From NCBI GenBank assembly GCA_030770535.1, contig JASVEC010000011.1, forward strand, positions 496,001-560,000: DNA of 64,000 bases, in the 5' to 3' direction. Below, piece after piece: positions 1-62,274 of the stretch; the first letter of the stretch is position 1, and each line of letters opens with the position of its first letter. A model generated the notes under the pieces. It made no database searches. It was not told the DNA's origin and worked only from the letters and a program-made list of their open reading frames with translations. A program made the position numbers and the translations under genes. The DNA comes from Batkoa obscura (lineage: Eukaryota).

Positions 1-51
1 AATTTACTTGTCGAAAATGATTTATTTGTAATAAAGAATAAACATATATAT

Positions 52-149
52 GGGGGTGTTTTTTTGGCTTCATCACTTTTTCCGTTTTTTAAGTGCTATT
101 TAAGTGGAAAAATTGTTAGTAAAATTCTTAAATACAAAAATACATCCTC
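52..149 (+). mobile_element. ~98-bp MITE (family A), Sola2-like termini
   Basis: GGGGGTGTTTTTT...ATACATCCTC termini; ATAT on both sides; same internal sequence recurs about 15 times in the window. Confidence 0.9.
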
Positions 150-328
150 ATATAGTAAATATATAAATGGAAACCCAATATACAAATTAGATAACCTGCT
201 AATTAAAGTTATAAGTAAAATCACATTGTATAAGTATGACAGACAGAACCAAATAAAAATTAAAAATAAATTAAAAATATAGCTATAAAAACTAACCCAA
301 AATTACTAAAAACTTGTATGATAACTTA

Positions 329-1099
329 ATGAAATTTACTTTTATCTTTACTCTTCTTAGTGCTGCTATTACTGCTGGTATTCCTTCCGAAATCCCACCT
401 GGTCGTATTGTAGGTGGTTATGAGGTATCTCCAAGATTTAAATACCCTTGGGTAGTATCCCTTGACTATGATGGCTTCCATTTCTGTGGTGGTACTTTAT
501 ATAATGGGAACACTGTTATTTCAGCTGCTCATTGTGCAAAAAGAGATATCTCACTATGGACTGCTCGTGTGCATCGTCATAATTTGAACGCAACTGAATC
601 TTCTGAACAAGGAAAAACTTACAATATCAAATCTCGTATTGTTCATCCATACTATAGATTACGCACTCGAGCATATGATATATCTATTTGGAAGCTTGAT
701 AATGCTTCTGGACCGTCTACTGGTATTAAAATTGATACTGGTACCTATTCTAATACTGATAACACCCTCCTCAAAGTTATTGGCTGGGGTGCTACTTCTT
801 ATGGCGGTAGCCTTTCATCAGTTCTTTTAGAGGTAAAAACACCAGTATTTAATATTGGTAACTGTAAGGAAGCTTATCCAATCTTGGATACTGAATCTCA
901 ATTTTGCGCTGCTTATCCAGAAGGTGGTAAAGATTCGTGCCAAGGCGATTCTGGAGGTCCAATGTTCATTGAAGAAGGTACTACTCCAATATTAGTCGGC
1001 ATCGTCTCATGGGGTGAAGGCTGTGCTCTTAAAGGCAAACCAGGTGTGTATACTCGCGCTTCAGCCGCTGTCGATTTTATAAAGGAAAATTCTAAATAA
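329..1099 (+). CDS. Secreted trypsin-like serine protease (S1A)
   Basis: Signal peptide MKFTFIFTLLSAAITA, activation site R-IVGG, SAAHC, DISIW, GDSGGP, S1 Asp in GKDSC; first ATG at 329. Confidence 0.97.
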   Translation: MKFTFIFTLLSAAITAGIPSEIPPGRIVGGYEVSPRFKYPWVVSLDYDGFHFCGGTLYNGNTVISAAHCAKRDISLWTARVHRHNLNATESSEQGKTYNIKSRIVHPYYRLRTRAYDISIWKLDNASGPSTGIKIDTGTYSNTDNTLLKVIGWGATSYGGSLSSVLLEVKTPVFNIGNCKEAYPILDTESQFCAAYPEGGKDSCQGDSGGPMFIEEGTTPILVGIVSWGEGCALKGKPGVYTRASAAVDFIKENSK

Positions 1100-2376: not shown

Positions 2377-4735
2377 ATGACAGTCTTACTGGATATATGC
2401 CAATGCATCGAGGTGGGTAGGGAACTAATATCTGAAGGAGAAGAAACCAAAATACTTACTGGACAAATGAGTAAAATTACCCGTAAAGTAAAGAGAGGGG
2501 AATTGATAATCGAGGATATTAAAAAGAATTTTGACGCCGATGAAGAGCCTAATACAAAACGATTAGGGATTGTGGTAAAGAATTATTTATCAATATTAGC
2601 ATCTTGTTTAGAATTTGTGCAAGCATTGAATAAAAAATATGCAATCACTAATATGCTAAATTCAGAAAATCATAAGAAAGCACTTTACTCTATTTTAAAT
2701 GATATCGAACAAGCCATTTTTGAATTAGACACTGAAGCATGTTTAATCGAAAGATTAAACTTTGAAAAGGCCAAGAAGAGCATGCAAGCTATAGCTGAAG
2801 AAGATAAAGTATTAAATTCCGTGGTTGTTCAAAATGAAACTAAAGTTGATAATAAAGGTAAATTTTTATCAAAAGTAATTATAATTATTTTACAAGAGTA
2901 TAGTAACTACAGATACAAACCATGAAGGTAAAAAAACCGAAATCAGCGTTGAATCTAAAAATAAGGAAGAAAATGAAGTTTTGCCATCTAAATTAACTTC
3001 AAACCAACCAGAAAATGACATACCATCATCCTCGGATTTAAATGCTAGCAACGCTGAAAGCAATATTAATATTATAAATGACTCAAAGCCAGAGAATATG
3101 GCTATTAGCCAAGAACAACCCAATATTATTGGAACAAAAGGTGAGAGTAGGATTAATTCAACAGGTATTAATATTCAACAAGTGCACCAAAAGTTAGATA
3201 ACGTCGGTTCCAAAGATACAAAGATACAACTAGAAGTAAATTTGAATGTAAATAGCGCCATTAGTAATGTTAAGGAGGATGAGGTACATCAACTAACACA
3301 AGAGATGGAAGAAATGAAAATAGAAAAGCCTTATAATATATTAAGTGAGGAGTTCAAAGCATTTCTGAAAACCCATTATATCCCAGGTGGTAATTTAGTT
3401 CAAGAAGACAATCTGAATAAGAATAAAAATGTTAATGAGTTTGAGCACTATAAAATAAAGAAATATAAAATCTATTTTCCAGGATGTGTAGAATTGGTTG
3501 AAGAAAAAAGTTATGTAAATAAGTATCAAGATAATTTAAAAATGATATTAAAAGAGATAGCCAATTTACATAATTTACAGGGATCCCCTTATGTTGTTCG
3601 TTTGTTTGGAATAACAGATTCTAGTTTTGGGATGCCTGACTTTTATCCTTACTCAGTTTTGGTTGAAACTACTTCTAGTGGTTGTTTATATGATTATATA
3701 AAATATGGCAAAAATAAAGGAGTAGAGTTCAATTTGACCTTAATGGAAGACATTGCACACGGTTTAGTTTATCTCCATCACACTCGTAATTTCAGTCATA
3801 ATAACCTAAATGCATATAACATATTAATCACTGAAAGTAATCGGGGAAAAATTACAGGCTTCGAATTTTCAGTAAAATCAAGCAGCACCAATAATGATGT
3901 CAATAATTATTCCATATTTAATCTATATAAAAATGATGCAAATAATATACCATTAAGCAAATTAATTTGGTTGGATCCATATTATGTTAACAGTTCTAAT
4001 CAAAATATATCAAATTATTATAATGATATTTATAGTTATGGTTTATTATTTTTTAGTTTATTCTCGTTAACACTACCTTATGATAAATTAACCAAAGAAG
4101 AAGTTTATAATAATATGAAAAACAATATGACACCAAACAAACATTTAATAAATCAACAATATCATTTACTATTGGAGCGCACATGGGATCCAAAGCCAGA
4201 AAATCGACCAAATGCCCATCAATTATTGAGTTTGCTAAACGAACCAGTCCATCTCATTCTTCCAGATCAACAATATCACCTACAACCCCAATTTCAATTA
4301 CCACCTTCCCCTTCTAATTTCTTTTCTCCTCAATTTCAAGATGCTAATATCTCATCAATGCCACAACTACCACCAACAAATCCCAACCTCAATTATTATA
4401 GTATGCCAATGATGCCATTTCCTAATGTTTCAAGTTATAATCCAAGTTCAAATCCATCTCCTTATACTACTCCCCAAACAACATTATCTCCCACTAATTT
4501 TAATCCATCATTTCCCACTTTTCCAAATCATAATATGGTAAATAGCTCCAATAAGAATAATGCTATTGGTCAAAATCTCAATTATTCAAATACACCATCA
4601 CACAGCACTAGTAGTCTCAATTCTATTAAATACACCAATTCGCCTATGATGCCGCCACCTTTGCCATCTAAAAACAATGATGAAAATAATAATTCTGGAG
4701 TTAAGTTACCACCTTTACCACCTAGGAGAAGATGA
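2377..4735 (+). CDS. MLKL-like protein: N-terminal 4-helix-bundle-like domain, linker, pseudokinase, Pro/Asn-rich tail; join(2377..2857,2913..4735), ~767 aa
   Basis: 55-nt GTAAAT...CTACAG intron joins ORFs 2377 and 2981 in frame; kinase fold with HNNLNAYNIL (HRD lost) and KITGFE (DFG replaced); amphipathic helical N-terminal ~120 aa. Confidence 0.75.
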
Positions 4736-4909: not shown

Positions 4910-4982
4910 TGCTCCGTATAGGGGTCGAACCTATGACCTTAGCGTTATTAGCACCACGCTCTGCCAACTGAGCTAACGGAGC
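4910..4982 (-). tRNA. tRNA-Ile (AAT)
   Basis: Cloverleaf: acceptor GCTCCGT/ACGGAGC, D arm GCTC/GAGC, anticodon loop CT-AAT-AA, T loop TTCGACC. Confidence 0.95.
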
Positions 4983-8072: not shown

Positions 8073-8617
8073 ATATTGTTATTTGGGTAAATTGTTGCTC
8101 AGAAAATACTAATAAAAGTTCGAATAGTCAAAACTAAAACTAAAACTATTAGTTAATCTTTTAAATAAAGTTAAACTAATTTTTTTTAATATTTGTTACT
8201 AAACATTTATATGTATGATTTAATTGAATAAGCTCAACAAATAAGAAGCTCAATGCTTTTATATGAATTCCTCAAGAATTATCCAAATAAATTAAATTAT
8301 TATTGCTGGTCCAATTTAAATGTGGATTGGGCATTTTAATCTTATGTTTGCTAAATATAAAAATAGAAATAACGTTCATGATTTAACTTAACTGATACAA
8401 AATTGAAAATACCTAATTCATGTTTAAATTGGGATAATAGTATAATCACCGGATAATACTTCAATGTAAAAACATACATTTAATTTCAAAGTATTATTAA
8501 ATGTTTAAGTATCCGTTTTATTACATGATTCTTATAAAGCTATATAAATAAGCTATATTTAAATTAAAAACTATAAAAAGGTGATTGAGGTAACTCAGAA
8601 ATAGTAACCTAATAAAT

Positions 8618-11600
8618 ATGTTCAATTTTAATAAGAAATATAATAACGAAGTGAACGAAAAGGATATTGGGTTAGAAGAAGAAAAAGAAGAAGAAAAGAG
8701 TGTAGAAAATGTACCTTTCCTTAAATTATTCAAATTTGCTACAGCTAAAGACAAATTATTAATATCTTTTGCATCATCAGTTTCTATTATTAATGGTATA
8801 TCTCAACCAATTTTATTTTTATTATTCTCCCAAGCCATTAGCTTATTTGGTGACTATCAAAAGAGTTACTCTGAGAATCCAGATCTCGCTAATAAAACAT
8901 TAAGAGAGACTGTTGATTTCTTATGTATTATGTTTGTCATAGTTGGAGCTATTACTGCAGTCGCTGCTTACTTTCAATTGTCACTTTGGTTAATGGTTGG
9001 GGAAAGTCAGGCTGTAAGAATCAGAAACAAATATTATCATTCGGTTTTAAGTCAAGAAATAGGCTGGTTTGATTCTATTTCTTCAGGAGATATTGCTTCA
9101 CGCATAGCTGGTGATATTAATTTGGTTCAAGATGGCATATCAGATAAAGTCGGTCTTCTTATACAATATGTTACCTGCTTTATTGTAGCTTTCATTGTAG
9201 CTTTTATAAAGGGGTGGAAACTAACTTTAGTAATGTTAACTTCACTGCCACTAATGGGTGTTGCTAGTATGCTCATAAGTCATGATATTGCAGATACCTC
9301 TAAAAATGGCCAAGGTGTATATGGTGAAGCAGGGTCGATAGCTGAAGAAGTACTGTCTGCTATTAAAACAATCTATTCGTTTAATACTCAGGAAAAAGAG
9401 CAAAATAGATATGAAGATAAACTAAAATTAGCTCGTAAAAAAGGATTTCGTAAAGCTTTTTTTTCTGGTTTAAATAATGGTATCTTTCTATTTATTATAT
9501 TTGCAAGCTATGCTCTGGCTATGTGGTATGGTGGTAAATTAATTCGAGATGGGGAGCAAGGCACTGTTGATGTGCTAGCTGTCTTTTTTAATGTTCTAGT
9601 TGGATCTATGGTATTAGGCATGACCTCCCCTTCTCTTACTGCTATTGCTACAGCACAAGGTGCTGCTACTAAACTATTCGAAATCATTGAAAGAGAATCA
9701 AATATTGATCCATTTTTAATAACTGAAGAACATGTGAAAAATCAATCTAAAATGTCACCAGTAAAAGGGAGTATAACATTTGAAAATGTACAATTCAGTT
9801 ATCCATCTAGACTGGATGTTCAGATCCTTAAAGGTATTAGTTTTGAAGCATTAAAAGGACAAACAGTTGCTTTAGTTGGTCATTCTGGTAGTGGTAAAAG
9901 TACATGTATTAGTTTGATAGAAAGATTTTATACACCAACATCTGGAAGGATTTTGTTAGATGGAATAGATATCTCTCAAATCTCAAATAAATTCTTAAAA
10001 GAACATGTTGGCTTAGTAGGTCAAGAACCATGTTTGTTTGGTACCACCATTAAACAGAACATCTTATTTGGTTTAAAGAACGATGATGAGTTTAAAGCTG
10101 ATGCTAAACAATTACATGATCGTGTTGTAAATGCTTGTAAACTAGCTAACATCCATGATTTTATCATGAAGTTACCACAACAATATGATACTATGGTTGG
10201 TGATCGTGGGTCTCAATTAAGTGGAGGACAAAAGCAAAGAATAGCTATTGCTAGAGCTATAATTAAAGATCCAACTATATTATTACTTGATGAAGCCACC
10301 TCAGCGTTAGATACTGAATCAGAAAGAATTGTTCAAAAAGCATTAGATAATGCTGCTAAAGATAGAACAACTATTGTGATTGCTCATCGTTTATCTACTA
10401 TTAAAAAAGCAGATAAGATTGTTGTCTTTGACGAGGGTACTATTATTGAAGAAGGAAGCCATAACGAATTAATTGAGCTTAACGGTGCTTATGCTAATTT
10501 AGTTAAACAACAAGAAATTAGAAAGGGTGGGAATGAAGGAAAAAGCAAATACGATGCTGTAATAAGCACTGATATAAATGAAGATAAAGTAGTATTAGAT
10601 ATTGAAAACATTGAATTAAATGAAGTTCTATTTAAAATAGAAAGCCAAGTTAAACCACTTCCAGAAGTTTTGGTCAAAGACAAAAATCAACCAGTAGCAT
10701 TAGCAAGATGTTTAAGAATGGTAAGATCATATTGGTATTATGGACTGTGTGGATCTATCGGTGCGATTATAGATGGAGTTTCTTACCCCATTGAAGCAAT
10801 TATTCTCACTAATGCCATAGAATCTTTTATAGGATTAACTACTCCACAATTAGTAGAGAAATCTCAGATTAATATTAATTTCTCCTCGCTCATGTTTTTG
10901 GTGTTAGCTATTGTTTGTTTTATTGCTGGTCTTATGAGGTACGCTGGCTTCAACACGCTAGGAGAACACCTTACTTATGAAATTCGTAGAAGATGCTTCC
11001 GTTCTTTATTAACTCAAGAAGTTGGTTTTTATGATGCTCCTGAAAACTCGGTTGGAATTATCACTGGTAAACTATCAACTGAGGCTGAGAATGTTCAAGG
11101 TTTAGTTGGTAAATTTTTAGGGCCGATTTTTAGTGCGTTATCTTGTACTGTTATTAGCTTGATTATTGCTTTTTTAAGCGGATGGAAACTCACTATGGTT
11201 GCGTTAGCTACAGTGCCATTTACTGCTTATGGTCAACTTGTTGAAGTATCTGCATTAACTGATGTTAATGAAAAAACAAAGCTTGCTTATTTAAAAGCGT
11301 CCCAAATTGCTATGGAGTCAATTATTAATAAGCGCACTATCAACTCACTAAATAGAGAGACTATATTTTTCGAGGACTATTTAGGAAGAGTTGAAAAAGC
11401 TCACCAAGTTTCCAAGAAAGGCTATCTTAAATCAGCAGTAGGATATTCATTTGCTATGAGTATCCCGCATTTTGTCAATGCTTTGCTATTTTGGTATGGC
11501 ACTACTTTAATTATTTCTCAAGAATATGATTATAAAAGTATTTTCCAAATTATCAATTCAATTATGTTCATGGGAATGTCATTTGGGTATGCTTCTAGTG

Positions 11601-12448
11601 AGTTGCTTTCTTTTGTTAAATCTAAAGTTGCTGCCAATGATATTTTTGCACTTTTAGACCGTACACCCAAGATTAATCAATCAGATGTTTATGGTAATAA
11701 AAATAAGCAATTATATGGTAATATTTTAAGTGAAAATGCTCACTTTGCTTACCCGTCTAGACCCGATACTAAGGTATTAAATGGATTAGATTTAGAAGTA
11801 CTTAGAAATAAAAAAGTAGCTTTAGTTGGCTCTTCTGGGTCTGGAAAATCAACTATCATTGGCCTTATCCAAATGTTCTATACACTTGATTCTGGTAAGC
11901 TTGAAGTTGAAGGCCAGGATATCAGTGAATGGAATGTACCTTATTTAAGAAGTCAATTATCTACCGTTGGTCAAGAACCTGTACTCTTCAACATTTCAGT
12001 TATGGATAATATCGCTTATGGAGCAGAAAGAGATGTCACAAAAGAAGAAATTATTCATGTAGCTAAAATGGCTAATGCACATGATTTTATCATGGATCTC
12101 CCAGATGGTTATGATACTTCATGTGGTGAGCGTGGAGGTAGACTTTCAGGTGGTCAAAAACAGAGAGTAGCTATTGCTAGAGCACTTATTAGGAATCCAA
12201 AATTATTGCTATTAGATGAAGCTACATCTGCTTTAGATTCCCAATCTGAAAAAGTTGTACAAGATGCTTTAGATAAAGCTTCGGAAGGTAGAACTACAAT
12301 TACCATTGCTCATCGTTTATCCACTATTCAAGATGCTGATATAATTATTGTTATGAAAAATGGTAAAAAAGTAGAAATGGGTACCCATGACAATCTTTTA
12401 ACACTCAATGGATTCTATGCATCTTTAGTTCAAAATCAATCTCTTTGA
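8618..12448 (+). CDS. ABCB1/MDR-type full ABC transporter (paralog 1)
   Basis: TMD-NBD-TMD-NBD; Walker A GHSGSGKS and GSSGSGKS, LSGGQKQR twice, LLLDEATSALD twice; intronless 1276 aa. Confidence 0.97.
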   Translation: MFNFNKKYNNEVNEKDIGLEEEKEEEKSVENVPFLKLFKFATAKDKLLISFASSVSIINGISQPILFLLFSQAISLFGDYQKSYSENPDLANKTLRETVDFLCIMFVIVGAITAVAAYFQLSLWLMVGESQAVRIRNKYYHSVLSQEIGWFDSISSGDIASRIAGDINLVQDGISDKVGLLIQYVTCFIVAFIVAFIKGWKLTLVMLTSLPLMGVASMLISHDIADTSKNGQGVYGEAGSIAEEVLSAIKTIYSFNTQEKEQNRYEDKLKLARKKGFRKAFFSGLNNGIFLFIIFASYALAMWYGGKLIRDGEQGTVDVLAVFFNVLVGSMVLGMTSPSLTAIATAQGAATKLFEIIERESNIDPFLITEEHVKNQSKMSPVKGSITFENVQFSYPSRLDVQILKGISFEALKGQTVALVGHSGSGKSTCISLIERFYTPTSGRILLDGIDISQISNKFLKEHVGLVGQEPCLFGTTIKQNILFGLKNDDEFKADAKQLHDRVVNACKLANIHDFIMKLPQQYDTMVGDRGSQLSGGQKQRIAIARAIIKDPTILLLDEATSALDTESERIVQKALDNAAKDRTTIVIAHRLSTIKKADKIVVFDEGTIIEEGSHNELIELNGAYANLVKQQEIRKGGNEGKSKYDAVISTDINEDKVVLDIENIELNEVLFKIESQVKPLPEVLVKDKNQPVALARCLRMVRSYWYYGLCGSIGAIIDGVSYPIEAIILTNAIESFIGLTTPQLVEKSQININFSSLMFLVLAIVCFIAGLMRYAGFNTLGEHLTYEIRRRCFRSLLTQEVGFYDAPENSVGIITGKLSTEAENVQGLVGKFLGPIFSALSCTVISLIIAFLSGWKLTMVALATVPFTAYGQLVEVSALTDVNEKTKLAYLKASQIAMESIINKRTINSLNRETIFFEDYLGRVEKAHQVSKKGYLKSAVGYSFAMSIPHFVNALLFWYGTTLIISQEYDYKSIFQIINSIMFMGMSFGYASSELLSFVKSKVAANDIFALLDRTPKINQSDVYGNKNKQLYGNILSENAHFAYPSRPDTKVLNGLDLEVLRNKKVALVGSSGSGKSTIIGLIQMFYTLDSGKLEVEGQDISEWNVPYLRSQLSTVGQEPVLFNISVMDNIAYGAERDVTKEEIIHVAKMANAHDFIMDLPDGYDTSCGERGGRLSGGQKQRVAIARALIRNPKLLLLDEATSALDSQSEKVVQDALDKASEGRTTITIAHRLSTIQDADIIIVMKNGKKVEMGTHDNLLTLNGFYASLVQNQSL

Positions 12449-19034: not shown

Positions 19035-22000
19035 TCACATTGCTGATTTGAGAAACTTGGCATGGACTCGGTTATATATAACGCTTGTTCGTTTATGTTT
19101 AATTGAATAGCTATCATACAAGTGTTTATGTATGACTTCATATGGTCCATCCCATTTCAATGCTAGTTTATTTTTTCTAGATTGATTATAGGAAGGGTAC
19201 AGATGAACGATATCACCTACTTTGAAGACAGCTAGACGAGGAAGTCGAGAAATGTCTTGTCGATACCTCCTTGTTTTCGAGTCTGTCAATGCATTAAAGG
19301 CGTCAACTTGGATAGCTATTAGTTTTTTTGTTAGCTTAAGCAAGTACATGTCAGGACTCATCTCTTCTTGTCTAACTATCAAAGGAGCGAATGATATGGG
19401 GAGTCCCGGATGTCTCCCATAAAGCATAACAAAAGGGGATTTTTTGGTAATACTATGTACTGAATATCTATATGCTAAAATAGCAGAATGTAGATATTCA
19501 TCCCAAGAGCTAGTTTTATCGAAAGCCAGCTTCCTTAATATACGTACTAGTGTACCGTTTACTCTCTCAACCATTCCGTTAGTTTCAGGATGATATGGAG
19601 CTGCAGTAGAATGCTTTATGGCCATTAGTCTAGCTAATTTCGGGAGAACCAGGTTAACAAAATTGGCAGCGTTATCAGTAAGTATCACCTGAGGGCTTCC
19701 ATGCCTACAAATAATATCCTCGTATATAAATTTAGATATGTGAAAGGAAGTCTGATTTGGTATTGCTTTTGCTTCAACCCACTTAGTTAGATGGTCGATA
19801 GCTACAACAATAAATTTGTTCCCTCTTACCGAGGAGGCCTCACAGAGAGGACCTATTACATCTATACTTACCGTGTGAAATGCATGTTTAGGTAAAATAA
19901 ACTTATAGGCTGTAGCTTTTATTTTACTTTGTTCCCTCTTGCAAACATCGCAATTATTTATAAAGTCTTCCAAATCTGGTATCATTGATTCCCAATAGCA
20001 GGAGACTTTCATAGTATCGTATGTTTTTTGGAAGGCTGAATGTCCACAGATTACATCATGGAATTGTTGGCATGCAGATAGTCGTGAAGAAGGCCTAATA
20101 TATGGAATATATGTTCCCTTAATCTTTTTATACAAGGCATTATCTCTTACAATGATATTTTGAGCGTTTTTCTCAAGCCATTGTTTGAGTTCAGGCTGCT
20201 GCTGCGGCCATTTATCTTTATTACCCAATAGATTGTACAAATCATCATCTATGGGGGTAGCTAGACAAATTCTGGGTAACCTGCTAAGCCCATCTGCATT
20301 TTGATGATCTTTACCTGGTTTATATACTATATCAAAACTATACGATTGTAGTTTTAGAGCCCACCTAGCTAAACGTCCTTCAGGATTAGTGATTGAATAC
20401 AACCATTTTAGGGAAACATGATCAGTAATAACAGTAAAGTGAGTGCCGTAGATATACGGTCTAAATGCCTTTATAGCATGAATAATTGCAAGGCATTCTT
20501 TCTCTGTTGTAGTGTAGTTCCTTTCGTGTTTCGACAAGGTCCTAGAGGTATAGGCTATTGGGTGTTCACAATTGTTATCATCGAGTTGACTTAAAACACC
20601 TCCAACTGCAGTTAGACTAGCGTCAGTATGTAGTGAGAAGGGCTTTGAGAAATTTGGAAACATCAATACTGGGGCGTTAAGCAGCTTGTTGCGAAGCTCT
20701 TCAAAAGCTTGTTGGTGTTCTTCCTTCCATTGAAACTTGACTTCTTTCTTTAGTAATTGGAACAGTGGGGTAGCTAAATTCGAAAAGTCTTTTATAAACC
20801 TTCGATAATAATTCATTAATCCAAGGAATACTTGTACCTCCCGCATCGTAGTTGGGGGGAGAAGCTCCTTCACTGCATCTAGTTTATTTGGAATAGGGGC
20901 TAGTCCTTTGTCAGAGACTTTATAGCCTAGAAATTCCAAACTAGTTTGGAAGAATGAACACTTCTTTGGTTTTAACTTTAGATTGGCTTGACGGAGGCGC
21001 TCAAATACTGCTTTAAGATGAGTTAAGTGATCTATAAAAGTTCTTGAAAACACATTCAAGTCATCTAAGTAAATTAATACGCACGAAAGTTTAAGGTCAC
21101 CTAGTGTATTATCCATAAGACGCTGGAATGTAGCGGGAGCGTTCGAAAGGCCTTGTGGCATCCTAGTTGGTTGAAATAGTCCTTCAGAAGTTATTAAAGC
21201 GCACTTTTCTTGGTCTTCTGGATCCATTTCTACCTGCCAGTATCCTGAGATTAAATCCATTGCTGAAAAGTATTTAGCACCTTGTAATCGGTCAACCGCA
21301 TCGTCTATTCTGGGTAGAGGGTATACATCTTTCTTTGTGATTTTGTTAAGCTTTCTATAGTCCATAACTACTCTATTAGTTCCATCTTTTTTCTTAACGA
21401 TCATAAGGGGGGAGGCCCATGGACTATTTGAAGGAATGATTAAACCTAGCCTTAAGAGTTTTTGAACTTCTTCTCGTTCTGCTTTGAGTTCAGATTGAGA
21501 TTTACGATATGCTTTAGTTGCGACGGGTAATGAATCACATGTATATACTTTATGTTTAGTATTGCGAGCGCAACCAATATCTTCTTCTGAAGTTGCGAAT
21601 ATGTCTTTATATTCCTCCAGCAATTTATAAAATTGGAGTTGTTCATCTTGGTTTAGATGGTTAATAGTGTCTTTTTCCACAAAAAGGGCTTGGTTATTTG
21701 GGGCCTCTTCGTGAATTTGAAATTCTTCTAGTGTTGCAAATTTACTGAAAGTATTAATCAAGGCGTTGTTTTCTACGTATATCGTGCCAATCTGTTGGCC
21801 TCTAGAGATATTGATTTCTTTTTTGGTAATGTTTGCAAGTAATAACTTGATAGTCTCATTCATGTTGTTGCCTAAAATTCCGGGCATAGTTAGTGGTTCT
21901 AATTGTGAGACACCTTCTATACTATATATAGATAAATGGAATTCCTTAGGTATCCATAGTGAGATCTCAGTATCTAATACTATCTGTGACTTAGGCGGTA

Positions 22001-23057
22001 TTAATAAGTTCTTAGGAGAAATAACGGGAATTCCAGACTGTTTATATGCTATCTCCGGATATTGATGAATTACGGATTCTGATCCGCAGAGAGTGACATC
22101 AATTAATTTATTGTTGGTCCGATAGTTCATTATACGGCAGCCAGGAGATTTATTGTTTATCATATTGATAGATAGGTCTCTTGGTTTATTGTAGTACATT
22201 GGGATGGATTGATCTAATATTTTTAAGATATTTTGATCGTACAACAATTGACAACCGTGTTTCACAAAGAATTCGGTGCCTAGGAGGAAGTCATAACCTT
22301 CACTTTCTAATACTATTGCTGGAAAGGCTAAGGTTAGTTTTCCAAATTTGATTGGTATTGATGAGTATGCTCCTAGTGCTGTAGTAGTTCCAGTTCCAGC
22401 TGTACCAAAGGTGTCTGAGCAATCTATATCTGGTTTAAAGGATAATCGTTTTACCAGACGACTCGATATGAAATTGATAGGAGCTCCACTATCTAATATG
22501 ATGCGTACATTCTTTTTATAAATTGACGCATTGATGTAAGTACAATCGATGGAGTTAGCTTTGTCATCGAGGTTTACTAAAAGAATCTGTTTATTTGGAT
22601 TCTGGTATTCTCTAATAATTTTTCTAAATGCAATTGCTAAGTCTGATTCTCCAGTTAAGATCTTGTCTAGCGGGATTGGGATCGTAACATTGGTTAACCA
22701 CTGATGCGTGTTATCTAGTTCGCTTTGTGTGAGGGATAGTTTAGATAAATCAGATAATTGTGAGATGTAAGGTTTGGAGATCTCGTTCATTGGAATCGAA
22801 TCAGGAGCATTAATAGAGTTATCAGGTAGCTTGAAAATTCGAGGTGGAATGACTTTAGGGATTTCCACAACAGGGACTTTTTTCTTTTTAGGTCTACCAC
22901 GAATTCGCGAAGGAAGTGCTAGGATGAGGGTAGAGGGGTCAAATTTTGAAAGCGTATTAAATTTAAGGTCTAATCCAGTGCTTTCATCTGGATCAGGAGG
23001 AATTTTTAACTTCGTGGAAGGGGGATCCTCATTTATCCTCCCACTTAGAAGTTTTTT
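19035..23057 (-). CDS. pol: Pol (protease, dUTPase-like domain, RT, RNase H, integrase), probably expressed as a Gag-Pol fusion by -1 frameshift
   Basis: ILDSGA, YLDD, LHTDAS, HHCC zinc finger, DDE core, WDGPY; frame is open from the AAAAAAC site at the end of gag. Confidence 0.95.
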   Translation of the reverse strand, partial: KKLLSGRINEDPPSTKLKIPPDPDESTGLDLKFNTLSKFDPSTLILALPSRIRGRPKKKKVPVVEIPKVIPPRIFKLPDNSINAPDSIPMNEISKPYISQLSDLSKLSLTQSELDNTHQWLTNVTIPIPLDKILTGESDLAIAFRKIIREYQNPNKQILLVNLDDKANSIDCTYINASIYKKNVRIILDSGAPINFISSRLVKRLSFKPDIDCSDTFGTAGTGTTTALGAYSSIPIKFGKLTLAFPAIVLESEGYDFLLGTEFFVKHGCQLLYDQNILKILDQSIPMYYNKPRDLSINMINNKSPGCRIMNYRTNNKLIDVTLCGSESVIHQYPEIAYKQSGIPVISPKNLLIPPKSQIVLDTEISLWIPKEFHLSIYSIEGVSQLEPLTMPGILGNNMNETIKLLLANITKKEINISRGQQIGTIYVENNALINTFSKFATLEEFQIHEEAPNNQALFVEKDTINHLNQDEQLQFYKLLEEYKDIFATSEEDIGCARNTKHKVYTCDSLPVATKAYRKSQSELKAEREEVQKLLRLGLIIPSNSPWASPLMIVKKKDGTNRVVMDYRKLNKITKKDVYPLPRIDDAVDRLQGAKYFSAMDLISGYWQVEMDPEDQEKCALITSEGLFQPTRMPQGLSNAPATFQRLMDNTLGDLKLSCVLIYLDDLNVFSRTFIDHLTHLKAVFERLRQANLKLKPKKCSFFQTSLEFLGYKVSDKGLAPIPNKLDAVKELLPPTTMREVQVFLGLMNYYRRFIKDFSNLATPLFQLLKKEVKFQWKEEHQQAFEELRNKLLNAPVLMFPNFSKPFSLHTDASLTAVGGVLSQLDDNNCEHPIAYTSRTLSKHERNYTTTEKECLAIIHAIKAFRPYIYGTHFTVITDHVSLKWLYSITNPEGRLARWALKLQSYSFDIVYKPGKDHQNADGLSRLPRICLATPIDDDLYNLLGNKDKWPQQQPELKQWLEKNAQNIIVRDNALYKKIKGTYIPYIRPSSRLSACQQFHDVICGHSAFQKTYDTMKVSCYWESMIPDLEDFINNCDVCKREQSKIKATAYKFILPKHAFHTVSIDVIGPLCEASSVRGNKFIVVAIDHLTKWVEAKAIPNQTSFHISKFIYEDIICRHGSPQVILTDNAANFVNLVLPKLARLMAIKHSTAAPYHPETNGMVERVNGTLVRILRKLAFDKTSSWDEYLHSAILAYRYSVHSITKKSPFVMLYGRHPGLPISFAPLIVRQEEMSPDMYLLKLTKKLIAIQVDAFNALTDSKTRRYRQDISRLPRLAVFKVGDIVHLYPSYNQSRKNKLALKWDGPYEVIHKHLYDSYSIKHKRTSVIYNRVHAKFLKSAM

Positions 23058-25561
23058 GACTCGTTATCGGAGTCGACAAACTTCTCAGTATCATCGCCTT
23101 CAGTATCGTTATAATTGAGGTGATTTATTTGTTTATTTTTATTGAAACGTTCATTGTTGCGAACATTCTTTTCGAAATAATATTTAAAAATACCATTTTC
23201 TGGCTTTGGTTCAGTGCAGTTAACGGTAATGTGTCCATATTCACCACAGTTCCAGCATCCAGTAAATACTCGAGATTTACGATGGTTGGAGTAGTGTTGT
23301 TGAGTGATGGTAAAACAATGAAGGTATTCGTTGTTGTCCATCCCTTTATCTATGTGATTAACATATAATTTCTTGGGTCTAACTTCACTTTTTGGACTTC
23401 CAAGGTATAATTCTAAAATCTCTATCATCTGTGTAACGTTGGTGATGTTATGATGAGGATCTAGAAAAAGGCATGCGATATGACTTGGAAGGTTTCGCTG
23501 GAAGGCCAGGCGGAGGTCTGTAACGCTTAACTTTCCACAGGAAATTAAGGCATTAGCACGATTTCTTACGTTTGTAATGAAACTCTCAAGTTTACTTTCG
23601 TCGTCTAAACGTAAAGATAAGAGGGCTGCCTTTTTTGCTTCCATTTTTACATCGGAATCATAATGGTCTATAAACGCCTTTTTGAAGGAATCCCAATTAC
23701 TGCGTAAGTCGTCAGGTAAAGTCATGCACCAAGAAAGTTCATTTGTTTGTAGTTGACCTAAAAGGCATTGAGGACGACATTCATAGGTCCAGTTGTTGGC
23801 ATCGAGATGAACTTCTAGAGCTTTAATGAAGGTAGTAGCAGTAATTTCACTTGGATTGAATAAAAGACTAAAATTAAACTTTGTGTTAACAGGTTGGGAG
23901 CTTCTTGGGTAGTTGTGGCGGTGTGTTGAGAAGCTATGTGATTTTGGATCGTTACCAGAAGGTCCAGGATGACTAAAATAAGCGTCATGGGTATTGTGTG
24001 ATATACCATGATCATGTTGAACAGTAATCGGATCGGCTTGTACATAGTGAGGTGAAGATTTCTCATAGGATATATGTTGAGCGATTTGAGGAGCAATATG
24101 TGATGACTTATTTTTGTTAAAAGGATTGGCTAAGTTGACTTCAGCATAAGATTGTACACGAGGTCGTATTGGATCAGCGTTAGATCCTGTAGCAGGATTT
24201 CTTGAGTAAATACCATCAGTAGGTACAGCAGTCATTCTAGGATTTGATTGGGGTAGGTATGTGGAAACTTGAGGAGAGTTCTCTTCTTTCTTTGTTTGAT
24301 CATCCGGTTGTACCAAGTGAACAGAACCATGATACTTATGGTTTATTTGATATTCAGTACCAAAGATAGATTCTGTGGCACTATCACCCAGATCATATAT
24401 ATTGTATCTTGGAACGTCTCTGTAACTCGAGAGTCTGGAGGGAGGTGCTGAAACAGCAATACGCTCCTTTCTACAATTGCAAGAAGATGCCTTGATTTGG
24501 TTAGTATTGGAAGCTACCTTAGTCTGAAGAAGAATGAGCTCTTCTCTGGTACTCTGTATGTTACGCGAGATTTCCTCCCAGTCAACTACTGTTTGTTCTT
24601 TGTCCAGTCTAATTTGTTCCTTCAAATTATTATTGGAGGTGATAAGCTGGCTAATGGTAGTCACTTGTTGAGCCATTTGTTCATTACAAACAGCTAAATC
24701 TTGTTCTAAAGCCAAGATTCTAGCATCTTTGGTTGAAGTAGATGGAGGGGATTGTTCAATACAGGATAAGCGGTGATTATACTCTTTGAATTTATTCATT
24801 AGCGATCTATGGAGTTCTGCGAAAGTGGCTTTTGTTTTTCCGTCGATATCTGAGATTCTTTCAGTAGTATGGTCATTGATCTCAGTGAGGGAAAGGTTGA
24901 TCTCATCGGAGATTTTAACAAGTTCAGAATGTAGAGCAGTATCGAGCTGACGTAATTCAGCTTTGAGATCTCCTACTTCTCTTACTAATTCTCTGTGGGC
25001 TTCATAGGTAACGGTGTTATTAAGTCTTTGATTGAGCTCATTTAACTTACTAACATGGAGTTCATTTGAAGGGGCGATGACACCACTCTTTTGGTTACTG
25101 ATCATGGAAAGGTTGTTAACCGTAGCTAAAAGTGAGCTCAAAGAGGTAGACAATTCATTGTTATGAATTGAAAGACGGTCGAGTTCACCAACCATCTGGA
25201 TGAGTTTGTTGTGCAGGAACTCTACTAGATATTGTTGAACGTGGGAAAGGGTAGGTACCGTTTGGTACTGGGCACGAAAATTGATTTGAGTACTGGAGCC
25301 ACTATTTTGGTATTGTCTCCAAGCGGAGAGGTCACCATCAAGGACGTGCATAGGGACAGCTCCGTAGGTAACGACTGAGTTTACAACGTGAGGAGGTAGT
25401 GCAGCTTGATTTAAAGCAGCAGTTTCTATTTCTGGGGTCAGAACACTAGCTTCCTCTTCATCACTACTACCCATGTCGTATTCAGTGATGATCAACTGTT
25501 GACGGTTATCAAGAAGGTATTTTGAGTCCGCAAAATAAGGTGCAAGACCATTGTCGACCAT
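23045..25561 (-). CDS. gag: Gag, 838 aa, with N-terminal coiled coil and C-terminal CCHC knuckle
   Basis: CWNCGEYGHITVNC; capsid-like WDSFKKAFIDHY; lies between PBS and pol. Confidence 0.92.
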   Translation of the reverse strand: MVDNGLAPYFADSKYLLDNRQQLIITEYDMGSSDEEEASVLTPEIETAALNQAALPPHVVNSVVTYGAVPMHVLDGDLSAWRQYQNSGSSTQINFRAQYQTVPTLSHVQQYLVEFLHNKLIQMVGELDRLSIHNNELSTSLSSLLATVNNLSMISNQKSGVIAPSNELHVSKLNELNQRLNNTVTYEAHRELVREVGDLKAELRQLDTALHSELVKISDEINLSLTEINDHTTERISDIDGKTKATFAELHRSLMNKFKEYNHRLSCIEQSPPSTSTKDARILALEQDLAVCNEQMAQQVTTISQLITSNNNLKEQIRLDKEQTVVDWEEISRNIQSTREELILLQTKVASNTNQIKASSCNCRKERIAVSAPPSRLSSYRDVPRYNIYDLGDSATESIFGTEYQINHKYHGSVHLVQPDDQTKKEENSPQVSTYLPQSNPRMTAVPTDGIYSRNPATGSNADPIRPRVQSYAEVNLANPFNKNKSSHIAPQIAQHISYEKSSPHYVQADPITVQHDHGISHNTHDAYFSHPGPSGNDPKSHSFSTHRHNYPRSSQPVNTKFNFSLLFNPSEITATTFIKALEVHLDANNWTYECRPQCLLGQLQTNELSWCMTLPDDLRSNWDSFKKAFIDHYDSDVKMEAKKAALLSLRLDDESKLESFITNVRNRANALISCGKLSVTDLRLAFQRNLPSHIACLFLDPHHNITNVTQMIEILELYLGSPKSEVRPKKLYVNHIDKGMDNNEYLHCFTITQQHYSNHRKSRVFTGCWNCGEYGHITVNCTEPKPENGIFKYYFEKNVRNNERFNKNKQINHLNYNDTEGDDTEKFVDSDNESKNF

Positions 25562-25690
25562 AGTTGAGAATTAAGGAGGTTAAGGGGGTTTTTCTTTGTT
25601 TGGGGTGGTTACGCGGTAAGGACCGTAAAGGAAAGATTATAAAGGCTATCTAAAATAGTTATAAGAGCTTTCCCAGTTATGAGCGCCAAA

Positions 25691-44132: not shown

Positions 44133-47100
44133 TCAAAGTGATTGGTTTTGAACCAAAGATGTATAGAAGCCATTAAGCGTTAGAAGCTCATCATGAGTAC
44201 CCATTTCTACTTTTTTACCATTTTTCATAACAATAATTATATCAGCATCTTGAATAGTGGATAAACGATGAGCAATGGTAATTGTAGTTCTACCTTCCGA
44301 AGCTTTATCTAAAGCATCTTGTACAACTTTTTCAGATTGGGAATCTAAAGCAGATGTAGCTTCATCTAATAGCAATAATTTTGGATTCCTAATAAGTGCT
44401 CTAGCAATAGCTACTCTCTGTTTTTGACCACCTGAAAGTCTACCTCCACGCTCACCACATGAAGTATCATAACCATCTGGGAGATCCATGATAAAATCAT
44501 GTGCATTAGCCATTTTAGCTACATGAATAATTTCTTCTTTTGTGACATCTCTTTCTACTCCATAAGCAATGTTATCCATAACTGAAATATTGAAAAGCAC
44601 AGGTTCTTGACCAACGGTAGATAATTGACTTCTTAAATAAGGTACATTCCATTCACTGATATCCTGGCCTTCAACTTCAAGCTTACCAGAATCAAGTGTA
44701 TAGAACATTTGGATAAGGCCAATGATAGTTGATTTTCCAGACCCAGAAGAGCCAACTAAAGCTACTTTTTTATTTCTAAGTACTTCTAAATCTAATCCAT
44801 TTAATACCTTAGTATCGGGTCTGGATGGGTAAGAGAAATGAGCATTTTTACTTAAAACATCACCATAAAGCTGCTTGTTTTTATTGCCATAAGCATCTGA
44901 TTGATTGATTTTGGGTGTACGGTCTAAAAGACTAAATACCTCATTTGCTGCAACTTTAGATTTAACAAAAGAAGTCAATTCGCTAGAAGCATACCCAAAA
45001 GAATTTCCCATAAACATAATTGCAGTGACCACTTGAAACATATTGTTGTAGCTATATTCCTGATTAATTACTAAGGTGGTACCATACCAAAATAGTAAAG
45101 CGTTGATGAAATGAGGGATTCCCATAGCAAATGAGTACCCTATCGCCGATTTGAGATAGCCAATTCTAGAAGTTTTGTGAGCTTTTTCAACTCTTTCTAA
45201 ATAGTCCTCGAAGAAAAGATTCTCTCTGTTTAATGAGCTAACAGTACGCTTATTAAGAATAGATTCCATAGCGAGTTGAGACACTTTCAAATAGGCAAGC
45301 TTTGTTTTCTCATTGACATCAGATAAAGCGGAAACTTGAACAAGTTGTCCATAAATGGTAAGTGGGGCAGTGGCTAATGCAACTAAAGTGAGTTTCCACC
45401 CACTAGAGAAGGCAATACTCAAACTAGCGATGGCACAAGACAAAGCACTAAAAATTGGCCCTAAAAACTTGCCAACCAAGCCTTGAACATTTTCAGCCTC
45501 AGTTGATAGTTTACCAGTGATAATTCCAACCGAATTCTCGGGAGCATCATAAAAACCAACTTCTTGGGTTAGTAAAGAACGAAAACATTTTTTACGAATT
45601 TCATAAGTAAGATACTCTCCTAACGTATTGAAACCAGCGTATCGCATAAAACCAGCAATTAAGCAACCAATAGCTAATGTTAGGAACATAAGGGACCAGA
45701 AGTTGATATCATTCTGTCCTTTTTCTATTAATCCTGGAGTAGTCAAATGAAAAAATGATTGCGTTGCATTAGTAAGAAAAATTGAATACATAGGGAATGC
45801 AATGCCATCCAATAACGCGCCGATAGCACCAACAAGTCCAAAATACCAATATGGTGATATCATTTTTAAGCATCTCATTAATGGGATTGAGACTTTCCCT
45901 TTGTTCCTTCTGCTCTCAATTAGTTCCTTCGGAAGGGTCTCAACTCGACTTGTCATCTTAAATAAGCCCACATCTAACTCTTTAATATCCTCAATATCCT
46001 CAATATCTATTACTATTTCCTCTTCACTAGTGCTTTCAATAACTATATCGTCGTCTTCGGTTACTTCTTCTTCTCCACCTTTTCTAATTTCCTGTTGTTT
46101 TACCAAATTAGCATAAGCGCCATTAAGTGCAAGTAATTCGTTATGGCTTCCTTCTTCAATAATAGTACCCTTATCGAAAACAATAATTTTATCTGCTTTT
46201 TTAATAGTAGATAAACGATGAGCAATCACAATAGTTGTTCTATCTTTAGCAGCATTATCTAATGCTTTTTGAACAATTCTTTCTGATTCAGTATCTAAAG
46301 CTGAGGTGGCTTCATCAAGTAATAATATAGTTGGATCTTTAATTATAGCTCTAGCAATAGCTATTCTTTGCTTTTGCCCACCACTTAATTGAGACCCACG
46401 ATCACCAACCATAGTATCATATTGTTGTGGTAATTTCATGATAAAATCATGGATGTTAGCTAGTTTACAAGCATTTACAACACGATCATGTAATTGTTTA
46501 GCATCAGCTTTAAACTCATCATCGTTCTTTAAACCAAATAAGATGTTCTGTTTAATGGTGGTACCAAACAAACATGGTTCTTGACCTACTAAGCCAACAT
46601 GTTCTTTTAAGAATTTATTTGAGATTTGAGAGATATCTATTCCATCTAACAAAACTCTTCCAGATGTTGGTGCATAAAATCTTTCTATCAATCCAACACA
46701 TGTACTTTTACCACTACCAGAATGACCAACTAAAGCAACTGTTTGTCCTTTTGATGCTTCAAAGCTAATACCTTTAAGGATCTGGACATCCAGTCTAGAT
46801 GGGTAACTGAATTGTACATTTTCAAATGTTATATTCCCTTTTACTGGTGACATTTTAGATTGATTTTTCACATGTTCCTCAGTTATTAAAAATGGATCAA
46901 TGCTTGATTCTCTTTCAATGATTTCGAATAGTTTAGTAGCAGCACCTTGTGCTGTAGCAACTGCGGTAATAGAAGGAGAAGCCATACCTAATACCATGGA
47001 ACCAGTTAGCACATTAAAGAATACTGTTAACACATCACCGGCATCTTGCTCCCTGTCATGAATTAATTTACCGCCATACCACATAGCTAAAGCGTAGCTT

Positions 47101-47984
47101 GAAAACGTTATAAGCAAAAAGATGCCATTACCTAAGCCCGTAAAAAAGGCCTTACGAAAGCCACTTTTACGAGCCATCTGTAATTTATTTTCGTATCTAA
47201 TTTGTTCTTTTTCCTGAGTGTTGAACGAATATATTGTTTTTATAGCAGATAATACTTCTTCAGCTATTGATCCTGCTTCACCATATACCCCTTGTCCGCC
47301 TTTAGAAGAATCTGCTACCGTTTTACCTATCAAAATACCCGCAAGTACTAACAACGGTACTGAACTTAACATCACTAAAGTTAATTTCCATCCTTTTATA
47401 AAAGCTATAACAAAAGCACCAATAAAACAAGTAATATTTTGTATAAGCATCCCAATTTTATCAGATATACCATCTTGTACCATATTGATGTCACCAGCTA
47501 TGCGTGAAGCAATGTCACCTGAGGAGATAGAATCAAACCAACCCATTTCTTGGCTTAAAACTGAACGATAATATTTATTTCTAATCCTCACAGCTTGACT
47601 TTCACCGACTATTAGCCAAAGTGATAGCTGTAAGTAAGCAGCAATTGCTGTGACACTTCCAGCTACAACAAACATAATGCATAAGAAGTTGATTTCGTCT
47701 TTCAATATTGCATCAGCAAGATCTGGGCTGACAGGATAGTTTTTTTGATAATTGCCGAACAAGCCAATAATCTGAGAAAACAATAGAAATAAGAAAGGTT
47801 GAGATAGACCATTGATAATAGAAGCTAACATAGCTAAACCAATTATTATTTTATCATTTTTTGTTGCAAATTTAAACAGTTTGAGCAATGGTACGTTTGG
47901 AGTTTTCTCTTTTTTCTCTTCTAACCCAATGCCCTTTTCATTGACTCTATTTTCATTCTCGTTCTTTTTCTTAGCTTTAAACAT
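44133..47984 (-). CDS. ABCB1/MDR-type ABC transporter (paralog 2)
   Basis: Same TMD-NBD x2 architecture and motifs; 1283 aa. Confidence 0.97.
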   Translation of the reverse strand: MFKAKKKNENENRVNEKGIGLEEKKEKTPNVPLLKLFKFATKNDKIIIGLAMLASIINGLSQPFLFLLFSQIIGLFGNYQKNYPVSPDLADAILKDEINFLCIMFVVAGSVTAIAAYLQLSLWLIVGESQAVRIRNKYYRSVLSQEMGWFDSISSGDIASRIAGDINMVQDGISDKIGMLIQNITCFIGAFVIAFIKGWKLTLVMLSSVPLLVLAGILIGKTVADSSKGGQGVYGEAGSIAEEVLSAIKTIYSFNTQEKEQIRYENKLQMARKSGFRKAFFTGLGNGIFLLITFSSYALAMWYGGKLIHDREQDAGDVLTVFFNVLTGSMVLGMASPSITAVATAQGAATKLFEIIERESSIDPFLITEEHVKNQSKMSPVKGNITFENVQFSYPSRLDVQILKGISFEASKGQTVALVGHSGSGKSTCVGLIERFYAPTSGRVLLDGIDISQISNKFLKEHVGLVGQEPCLFGTTIKQNILFGLKNDDEFKADAKQLHDRVVNACKLANIHDFIMKLPQQYDTMVGDRGSQLSGGQKQRIAIARAIIKDPTILLLDEATSALDTESERIVQKALDNAAKDRTTIVIAHRLSTIKKADKIIVFDKGTIIEEGSHNELLALNGAYANLVKQQEIRKGGEEEVTEDDDIVIESTSEEEIVIDIEDIEDIKELDVGLFKMTSRVETLPKELIESRRNKGKVSIPLMRCLKMISPYWYFGLVGAIGALLDGIAFPMYSIFLTNATQSFFHLTTPGLIEKGQNDINFWSLMFLTLAIGCLIAGFMRYAGFNTLGEYLTYEIRKKCFRSLLTQEVGFYDAPENSVGIITGKLSTEAENVQGLVGKFLGPIFSALSCAIASLSIAFSSGWKLTLVALATAPLTIYGQLVQVSALSDVNEKTKLAYLKVSQLAMESILNKRTVSSLNRENLFFEDYLERVEKAHKTSRIGYLKSAIGYSFAMGIPHFINALLFWYGTTLVINQEYSYNNMFQVVTAIMFMGNSFGYASSELTSFVKSKVAANEVFSLLDRTPKINQSDAYGNKNKQLYGDVLSKNAHFSYPSRPDTKVLNGLDLEVLRNKKVALVGSSGSGKSTIIGLIQMFYTLDSGKLEVEGQDISEWNVPYLRSQLSTVGQEPVLFNISVMDNIAYGVERDVTKEEIIHVAKMANAHDFIMDLPDGYDTSCGERGGRLSGGQKQRVAIARALIRNPKLLLLDEATSALDSQSEKVVQDALDKASEGRTTITIAHRLSTIQDADIIIVMKNGKKVEMGTHDELLTLNGFYTSLVQNQSL

Positions 47985-48524
47985 GTTTATTAATTAAATT
48001 TGATATTCTGTAATAGACTTTTCATTTGTTTTTATACACTCATTTCAGTCACTGAATATAATGAATATTTGACTATATTTGGCTCCTTTAAAGTAAACAA
48101 TTGTAATTATAAATTCAAGTGCCTATATTCTAAGCACCGAAAATCATACCCCGAAGCCCAAATTTACCCAAATTTAACAGGCGATTCTTGCCCAAATCCT
48201 CTACAACTCTATTTTAAATTTTCTAACCGATGAAGAGTTATTCCGGCAAGAGTTCTTTATTATTCTTCTAGTTGATTTTGTATATATGATAACTGAAATT
48301 AAGCAATAAATAGATAGAAAGGCCTTCCTCATCTTTTAAAATCAATTGGTTATTAATAAAAGATTGAAAATGACATATGATAGCCTTATATGACCTTTTT
48401 GCCTTATTAAATTACTGCCAATGGTGTGATAAATGATTTCGGCTTGTATAAATCATTATTTTGTTTAAAACGCTTGGTTATTTTGGGAAAAACAATAAAA
48501 TATCAATCAACAACACTTTAATAT

Positions 48525-62201: not shown

Positions 62202-62274
62202 TGCTCCGTATAGGGCTTGAACCTATGACCTTAGCGTTATTAGCACCACGCTCTGCCAACTGAGCTAACGGAGC
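62202..62274 (-). tRNA. tRNA-Ile (AAT)
   Basis: Same as 4910-4982 except T loop TTCAAGC. Confidence 0.93.

What the first reader, a model, noticed from the sequence alone, without database searches (positions are those of the whole stretch)
2377..4270. MLKL-like 4-helix bundle plus GFE pseudokinase in an early-diverging fungus: candidate necroptosis-type executioner
Seen: a 55-nt GT-AG intron (2858-2912) fuses two separately listed ORFs into one ~767-aa protein. The first ~120 aa are amphipathic helices. The kinase domain has no recognisable Gly-rich loop and has VEEK for VAIK, HNN for HRD and KITGFE for DFG. Established: animal MLKL is a 4HB-brace-pseudokinase whose DFG is replaced by GFE (KLAGFE) and whose HRD is also lost; fungi use HeLo/HeLo-like helical domains for cell death. 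Inference: this is a fungal MLKL homolog or a convergent analog, a membrane-disrupting domain gated by a dead kinase. The match of the GFE substitution is the most striking point.
Basis: partly seen in the sequence, partly recalled or inferred. Interest (0 to 1): 0.88.

Follow-up and report, generated by a model that had tools for sequence, protein, structure and literature searches.

The report
Fungal MLKL-like bundle plus dead kinase
An insect-killing early-branching fungus has a spliced gene whose protein joins a four-helix bundle related to the animal cell-death protein MLKL to a kinase domain missing its catalytic residues, so it likely acts as a switch-controlled membrane-damaging protein, although cell killing and direct descent from animal MLKL are untested.

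Summary
The gene is real and MLKL-like, with two corrections. The intron is 2858-2903 (46 nt, not 55), seen as a joint in 4 of 4 laid runs, and the frame ends at 4735, giving 770 aa. Its closest named relative is from Neoconidiobolus thromboides. A profile built only from fungal N-terminal domains finds MLKL as its top six solved-structure hits. A confident model (pLDDT 88) overlays mouse MLKL at 1.6 A. The kinase lacks the Gly loop and both catalytic aspartates in all 12 family members tabulated. The family has two Entomophthorales paralogues: this one with a Pro-rich tail, and one with Sel1 repeats. GFE alone is weak evidence, since 5 of 256 other kinase domains have it. Kinase trees join the family to vertebrate MLKL (98/90, 91/83), but this gene drops out once motif columns are removed, so orthology is open (about 40%). 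No brace homology, RHIM core or activating kinase was found, and killing is untested. Fungal MLKL-like proteins are mentioned in print (Basidiobolus, Glomeromycotina); I found no description of this family. The scan noted similar architectures in other fungal genomes.

The parts
2377..2857 (+). Exon 1 coding part (aa 1-160)
   Evidence: ORF from ATG 2377; covered by spliced contigs; 99% identical to P0001 over aa 1-125
2377..2793 (+). MLKL-type four-helix bundle, helices 3-23, 28-50, 61-86, 96-139
   Evidence: AlphaFold2 with an 11-sequence fungal alignment, pLDDT 87.8; mouse MLKL 4btf Z 12.8, rmsd 1.6 over 100 residues; profile's top 6 PDB hits are MLKL
2858..2903 (+). 46-nt GT-AG intron
   Evidence: Joint skipping 46 nt in 4 of 4 runs laid; P0001 sequence agrees
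2904..4735 (+). Exon 2 coding part, to stop codon
   Evidence: ORF 2885-4735; spliced product 770 aa
2904..3322 (+). Poorly conserved N/S/E/K-rich linker (aa ~161-300) where MLKL has its brace
   Evidence: 76% identical to P0001 and 5-15% to other orthologues; no profile match to the vertebrate brace region
3323..4246 (+). TKL/TK-type pseudokinase (aa ~301-608): no Gly loop; VEEK at 3497-3508; alphaC Glu378; HNN at 3797-3805; GFE at 3857-3865
   Evidence: Pfam PF07714 E 1e-21; motif table; 96% identical to P0001
4247..4735 (+). Asn/Ser/Pro-rich tail (aa 609-770) with PPLPSK and terminal PPLPPRRR, likely SH3-ligand motifs (motif class recalled)
   Evidence: Composition and motif scan; Pro-rich ends also in P0001 and P0005; no such tail in P0007

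Best explanation
The gene encodes a spliced 770-aa protein with an MLKL-type four-helix bundle and a kinase domain that lacks both catalytic aspartates, and it likely works as a switch-gated membrane-targeting effector of regulated cell death. Shown: splice, bundle fold and homology, pseudokinase motifs, conservation across Entomophthorales. Inferred: the pseudokinase, which keeps the beta3 Lys and alphaC Glu, would act as a conformational switch set by an upstream kinase or binding partner. Activation would cluster the protein and free the bundle, whose second helix is basic (net +4), to oligomerise on a membrane and permeabilise it. The Pro-rich tail would dock it on SH3 proteins. The Sel1-bearing paralogue is a candidate sensor or partner. 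In a fungus with few cross-walls (recalled), the outcome could be local membrane damage or sealing-off of a segment rather than death of the whole thallus.
For: A fungal-only N-terminal profile ranks MLKL chains 1-6 of 177,635 PDB sequences, E 6e-4 to 1e-3, colinear from the N-terminus. hhalign against vertebrate MLKL N-termini gives probability 78 and score 36, against 14 reversed and at most 19 in 30 block shuffles. Atlas features: MLKL_N, MCAfunc and RPW8 clusters, 0.94 with 188 shared. Fold: mouse MLKL Z 12.8, human MLKL 12.6, AtMLKL3 10.9, NRG1.1 CC-R 10.8. All 12 family rows lack both aspartates. The family profile puts RIPK1 (110.3 bits) and MLKL (109.4) at the top of single-domain PDB kinases, barely above SYK (107.7). 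Bundle (99%) and kinase (96%) are far better kept than the linker (76%) against P0001. Isolated bundles kill cells in invertebrate MLKLs (PMC11476962, abstract and passages) and plant MLKLs (10.1101/681015, passages).
Against: No functional data. The window's own N-terminus has no Pfam MLKL_N hit at E<=1, relatives stay under the 27-bit cut-off (20.1 and 24.4 bits), and the vertebrate profile scores the window protein 2.5 bits, below the best reversed decoy at 7.9. In the fold search IncA ties with MLKL (Z 12.9) and the CBL four-helix domain is close (11.9); Z under about 13 is common for helical bundles; Foldseek gives nothing at E<=0.001. The bundle is net acidic (-5) and helix 1 is not transmembrane-like, though some vertebrate MLKLs are also acidic (P0259, -6). 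No brace homology and no RHIM core. Strong conservation of the bundle is not the diversifying pattern of allorecognition genes. Plant MLKLs confer immunity without cell death (10.1101/681015, abstract).
Confidence: 0.5

Rival explanations
1. Non-lytic scaffold: the bundle is a protein- or lipid-binding module and the pseudokinase plus Pro-rich tail organise a signalling or cytoskeletal complex, with no pore.
For: Terminal PPLPPRRR and long low-complexity regions; acidic helix 1; CBL TKB and IncA match the fold almost as well; AtMLKLs act without cell death and associate with microtubules (10.1101/681015, abstract); spliced contigs in 4 of 4 runs suggest routine transcription.
Against: Sequence homology points specifically to MLKL, not CBL or IncA; tested MLKL-type bundles from animals and plants kill cells when isolated (PMC11476962; 10.1101/681015).
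Confidence: 0.3
2. Regulatory partner: this fast-diverged paralogue is a helper or inhibitor that pairs with the Sel1-bearing paralogue, which is the actual effector or sensor.
For: Both paralogues occur in Entomophthora muscae and Massospora cicadina; their bundles are homologous (probability 97.9); the Sel1 paralogue has MLKL-like spacing (beta3 Lys at 226-241 versus 228-232 in MLKL and 362 here) and mostly basic bundles.
Against: No interaction data; no second paralogue is seen in this window and no whole genome is held; no Sel1 paralogue named from Neoconidiobolus was retrieved.
Confidence: 0.15
3. On origin (a separate axis): the likeness to animal MLKL is convergent. An old bundle-plus-kinase architecture lost catalysis separately in fungi and animals and reached GFE twice.
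For: The joint clade collapses when 37 motif columns are dropped; dropping only 4 columns leaves this gene's subfamily unplaced; the 277-row FastTree keeps the two apart. GFE occurs in 5 of 256 other domains. Bundle-kinase proteins with intact or partly intact motifs occur among the hits (P0050, P0151, P0019). Plant MLKL is argued to be convergent (10.1101/681015, passage).
Against: With all columns, IQ-TREE joins the fungal family and vertebrate MLKL at 98/90 and 91/83, and none of 12 other degenerate kinases, four with GFE, is pulled in. With 4 columns dropped the Sel1 paralogue still sits with MLKL at 89/66. The AU test does not reject the clade without motif columns (p 0.378).
Confidence: 0.55

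Closest known systems
Vertebrate MLKL (PDB 4btf, 6ux8)
   Same: N-terminal four-helix bundle followed by a pseudokinase with GFE for DFG, a degenerate HRD and a retained beta3 Lys (MLKL motifs from PMC5104457, passages; ours).
   Different: About 140 aa of unconserved linker with no detectable brace homology; a 160-aa Pro-rich tail; EEK rather than VAIK; no activating kinase identified; killing untested.
Plant MLKLs (AtMLKL3, PDB 6ka4)
   Same: HeLo-type bundle (Z 10.9), pseudokinase and a low-complexity C-terminal extension (10.1101/681015, passages).
   Different: No five-helix brace detected; tetramer state untested; plant sequences were not in my trees.
Glomeromycotina MLKL-family proteins with Sel1 repeats (PMC8778642) and Basidiobolus 'MLKL' ORX91397.1 (PMC11476962)
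   Same: Early-diverging fungal proteins filed as MLKL-like; the paralogous subfamily here also has Sel1 repeats, and an unnamed bundle-pseudokinase (P0065) groups with it at 99-100/97 in the motif-free trees.
   Different: PMC8778642 reports the family exclusively in Glomeromycotina although it discusses Conidiobolus coronatus; this gene has no Sel1 repeats. The Basidiobolus sequence could not be compared.
Fungal HeLo/HELL effectors (HET-S, HELLP) and basidiomycete MLKL_NTD NLR domains
   Same: Same bundle superfamily (10.1101/2022.03.16.484565; PMC12881547, passages); HELL-kinase/pseudokinase fusions are noted in PMC12881547.
   Different: No RHIM core and no NLR domain; no Pfam HeLo hit; helix 1 is not strongly hydrophobic.

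Membership tests
MLKL | N-terminal four-helix bundle homologous to the MLKL executioner domain | tested here: met
   remote, below the Pfam cut-off
MLKL | C-terminal pseudokinase lacking HRD and DFG aspartates, with GFE and retained beta3 Lys | tested here: met
   VEEK, HNN, GFE; 12 of 12 family rows lack both aspartates, 10 GFE and 2 GLE
MLKL | Two-helix brace between bundle and pseudokinase | tested here: inconclusive
   No profile match (probability 0.07); helix 4 is predicted to run on to residue 139-159, which could stand in for part of it
MLKL | Kinase domain in one clade with animal MLKL | tested here: inconclusive
   98/90 and 91/83 with all columns; lost for this gene without motif columns; AU p 0.378
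MLKL | Activation-loop phosphorylation by a RIPK3-type kinase | not testable with these tools
   Ser at +8 or +9 from the GFE Gly in 4 of 5 orthologues, the spacing of human T357/S358 (PMC5104457, PMC11476962), but not invariant; no genome to search
MLKL | Oligomerisation, membrane permeabilisation and lytic death | not testable with these tools
   Needs experiment
HeLo/HELL amyloid-activated effectors | Amyloid signalling motif next to the bundle | tested here: inconclusive
   No RHIM core in 8 of 8 proteins scanned; other fungal amyloid motifs were not scanned
HeLo/HELL amyloid-activated effectors | Hydrophobic N-terminal transmembrane helix | tested here: inconclusive
   Helix 1 is amphipathic and acidic (mean hydropathy 0.82, net -4), and lower in orthologues; no HET-S control was run
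Active TKL/TK kinase | Gly loop, HRD Asp and DFG Asp | tested here: not met
   All three absent

The most novel reading that the evidence does not exclude
This family and animal MLKL descend from one bundle-plus-GFE-pseudokinase already present in the common ancestor of animals and fungi. The necroptosis executioner, dead kinase included, would then predate animals, and Entomophthorales would run a necroptosis-like pathway with two paralogues, a Sel1 sensor type and this Pro-tailed effector.
Probability: 0.25. Interest if true: 0.88.

Novelty: new variant of a known kind. Interest (0 to 1): 0.58.

Why it matters
The origin of MLKL and its relation to fungal and plant look-alikes is stated to be unclear (PMC11476962, passage). 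Characterised fungal bundles are switched on by amyloids and NLRs, not by a pseudokinase (PMC12881547, passages). A conserved, spliced, two-paralogue family with the animal-type GFE pseudokinase gives concrete sequences for testing whether pseudokinase gating of a killer bundle is ancestral or was reinvented. The isolated-domain assay in yeast is cheap.

Tried and rejected
The 55-nt intron: in frame, but not the joint listed in the contigs and not matched by P0001. Two separate genes: one contig spans both exons. Decaying pseudogene: bundle and kinase are the best-kept parts and the frame is open. Single-sequence model: pLDDT 60, MLKL only rank 23, uninformative. Single-sequence kinase search of PDB: EGFR, BMX and BTK on top, MLKL not among the 60 shown of 814. 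Atlas search on the kinase: generic kinase clusters only. Metagenome scan: 5 distant loci of 519 candidates, 24-28% identity, not used. No whole genome is held, so copy number, synteny and partner kinases were not tested. No run is on record as RNA; contig depth was not used as an expression level. Complex prediction of bundle with pseudokinase was not available, so direct contact is untested. Brace-region profile comparison found nothing for either paralogue. Literature searches showed no description of this family; none of the 25 papers listed of 755 contained 'MLKL'. Subscription papers and bioRxiv supplements were not visible, and the tree figure in the PMC11476962 supplement gave only its legend.

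Full report
Gene structure. Two ORFs, 2338-2925 and 2885-4735, overlap in different frames. Contigs of four public runs from two studies list a joint that skips 46 nt with GT..AG ends, i.e. 2858-2903, in 4 of 4 runs; its depth matches the depth of the neighbouring bin, and one contig spans 2353-4772 (3 further joints were not shown). The runs are guessed, not recorded, to be RNA, but they skip the intron and have zero depth at 1774-2167. The product is 770 aa and 90.5% identical to P0001 of Neoconidiobolus thromboides, which carries the residues that only the 46-nt form keeps. The window is therefore likely from an Entomophthorales fungus (inference).

Family. A HMMER search of 1.84 billion representatives gave 1450 hits at E<=0.001, of which 150 were listed. 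Subfamily A (this gene) holds P0001, Entomophthora muscae P0005/P0154, Massospora cicadina P0006 and an unnamed P0007. Subfamily B has the same N-terminal domain, HKN and GFE, and mostly C-terminal Sel1 repeats; it occurs in E. muscae, M. cicadina and Conidiobolus coronatus plus unnamed records. The A and B N-termini align at probability 97.9. Against P0001 the bundle is 99% identical, the kinase 96%, the tail 87% and the linker 76%; against E. muscae 42%, 38%, 33% and 15%.

N-terminal domain. Pfam finds nothing for the window's own domain and only sub-threshold MLKL_N hits in relatives (P0007 20.1 bits, P0160 24.4 bits, cut-off 27). A profile of 11 fungal N-termini, with no animal sequence in it, matched 25 of 177,635 PDB sequences at E<=10; the first six are MLKL (E 6.2e-4 to 1.0e-3), followed by a designed coiled coil at 0.0098. 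Against 120 vertebrate MLKLs the joint fungal profile scores up to 27.7 bits (median 8.4) while reversed decoys reach 7.2; in the other direction the vertebrate profile gives the window protein only 2.5 bits. hhalign of subfamily A against vertebrate N-termini gives probability 78 and score 36, with controls at most 19; subfamily B alone does not beat its controls. Atlas features point to MLKL_N, MCAfunc and RPW8 clusters. With the alignment, AlphaFold2 gives four helices at pLDDT 87.8. Among 48,161 chains the top rows are IncA (Z 12.9, rmsd 2.7), mouse MLKL (12.8, rmsd 1.6 over 100 residues) and human MLKL (12.6), with AtMLKL3 and NRG1.1 CC-R at ranks 9 and 10. Foldseek has no hit at E<=0.001, with MLKL second (TM 0.70). 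Each line alone is modest; together they make homology to the MLKL bundle about 90% likely (my estimate).

Kinase domain. It is TKL/TK-like. It has no Gly loop, VEEK with the beta3 Lys at 362, alphaC Glu378, HNN and GFE. Human MLKL has GFE and HGK, keeps K230 and binds ATP without metal (PMC5104457, passages). All 12 family rows lack both aspartates. But among 256 other kinase domains from my hits, 40 have Gly at the DFG Asp column and 5 have GFE (the sample was picked by likeness to a GFE query, and some rows may be misaligned). One, P0088, has no Gly loop, HGN and GFE in a WD40-SH3-like protein (domains read by eye) and groups with ordinary kinases. So GFE can arise repeatedly.

Phylogeny. 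The 277-row FastTree groups A, B and an unnamed bundle-pseudokinase P0065 (Glomeromycota-like by my recall) at 85 and leaves vertebrate MLKL apart (left out: 111 of 120 vertebrate MLKLs, 17 cluster members and short domains). IQ-TREE with a mixture model on 58 hand-picked rows joins them with vertebrate MLKL at 98/90. With 12 degenerate kinases as decoys, in 56 rows, the clade stands at 91/83 and admits none of them. Removing 37 motif columns breaks it, though the AU test does not reject it (p 0.378). Removing only the 4 substituted columns leaves B plus P0065 with MLKL at 89/66 and subfamily A unplaced, with an unsettled bootstrap. The window protein has a biased composition and long branch. 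No RIPK, plant or invertebrate MLKL, or Basidiobolus sequence was knowingly included. I put shared descent of the pseudokinase at about 40-45%.

Differences from MLKL. The beta3 Lys lies at 362 here against 228-232 in MLKL, 226-241 in subfamily B and 220 in P0007; the region between bundle and kinase shows no profile match to the vertebrate brace. The tail is Asn/Ser/Pro-rich and ends in a likely SH3-binding motif; no RHIM core is present. The bundle is net -5, with an acidic helix 1 and a basic helix 2. Neighbours are a trypsin, a tRNA-Ile, a C2H2 factor and an ABC transporter, with no NLR or partner kinase among the window's longer ORFs as read by eye.

Mechanism. Most likely (0.5) the pseudokinase is a switch that, once phosphorylated or bound, clusters the protein and frees the bundle to permeabilise a membrane. 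Fold and motifs are shown; switch, oligomer and membrane steps are inferred from animal and plant MLKLs. A non-lytic scaffold (0.3) and a helper of the Sel1 paralogue (0.15) are the rivals.

Prior art (passages read in each). PMC12881547 notes that some fungal HELL domains are fused to kinase or pseudokinase domains. PMC8778642 found MLKL-family homologues, with Sel1, only in Glomeromycotina. PMC11476962 names a Basidiobolus MLKL and calls the relation of fungal and animal MLKL unclear. 10.1101/681015 describes plant MLKLs as likely convergent. 10.1101/2022.03.16.484565, PMC10197012 and PMC5485727 cover HeLo/HELL and basidiomycete MLKL-like NLR domains. Seven searches showed no account of this Entomophthorales family. 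Earlier scan notes report HeLo-like plus kinase genes in other fungi; I did not test them.

Verdict. A real, conserved MLKL-architecture protein and a new variant of a known kind. The GFE match is suggestive, not decisive. Interest 0.58.

Noticed in passing
window 2902-3366, 4186-4655, 2389-2789: Runs X1, X2 and X4 each hold two versions of the gene: one identical to the window and one with 53-54 differences in 465 nt of linker and 40 in 470 nt of tail, while a 401-nt contig over the bundle has none. Two alleles or paralogues with a nearly invariant bundle region.
   Followed up: partly
window 47-156, 1337-1446, 1627-1733: Three copies of a ~110-nt element with 25-nt terminal inverted repeats, MITE-like; very many contigs map to it, so it is likely abundant in the genome.
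   Followed up: partly
window 8594-12448, 44133-47993, 53867-57727: Three intronless ABC-B (MDR-type) transporter ORFs; the last two are near-identical tandem copies.
   Followed up: no
window 19035-25570 (minus strand): Ty3/gypsy-like retrotransposon with gag-like and pol ORFs in slightly overlapping different frames, both open (identified by eye).
   Followed up: no
window 329-1099: Intronless secreted trypsin (Pfam E 1.6e-49); run contigs show diverged copies.
   Followed up: no
window 4910-4982 and 62202-62274: Two tRNA-Ile (AAT) genes on the minus strand, the first 175 nt downstream of this gene's stop codon.
   Followed up: no
P0019 and P0050 (not in the window): Unnamed proteins with a strong match to the vertebrate MLKL N-terminal profile (65 and 53 bits) followed by two kinase domains; P0019 also has ankyrin repeats. 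Their origin was not determined.
   Followed up: no
P0065 (not in the window): An unnamed 1321-aa protein with a weak fungal MACPF-like hit followed by an MLKL_N-like bundle and pseudokinase: two candidate pore-forming domains in one chain.
   Followed up: no
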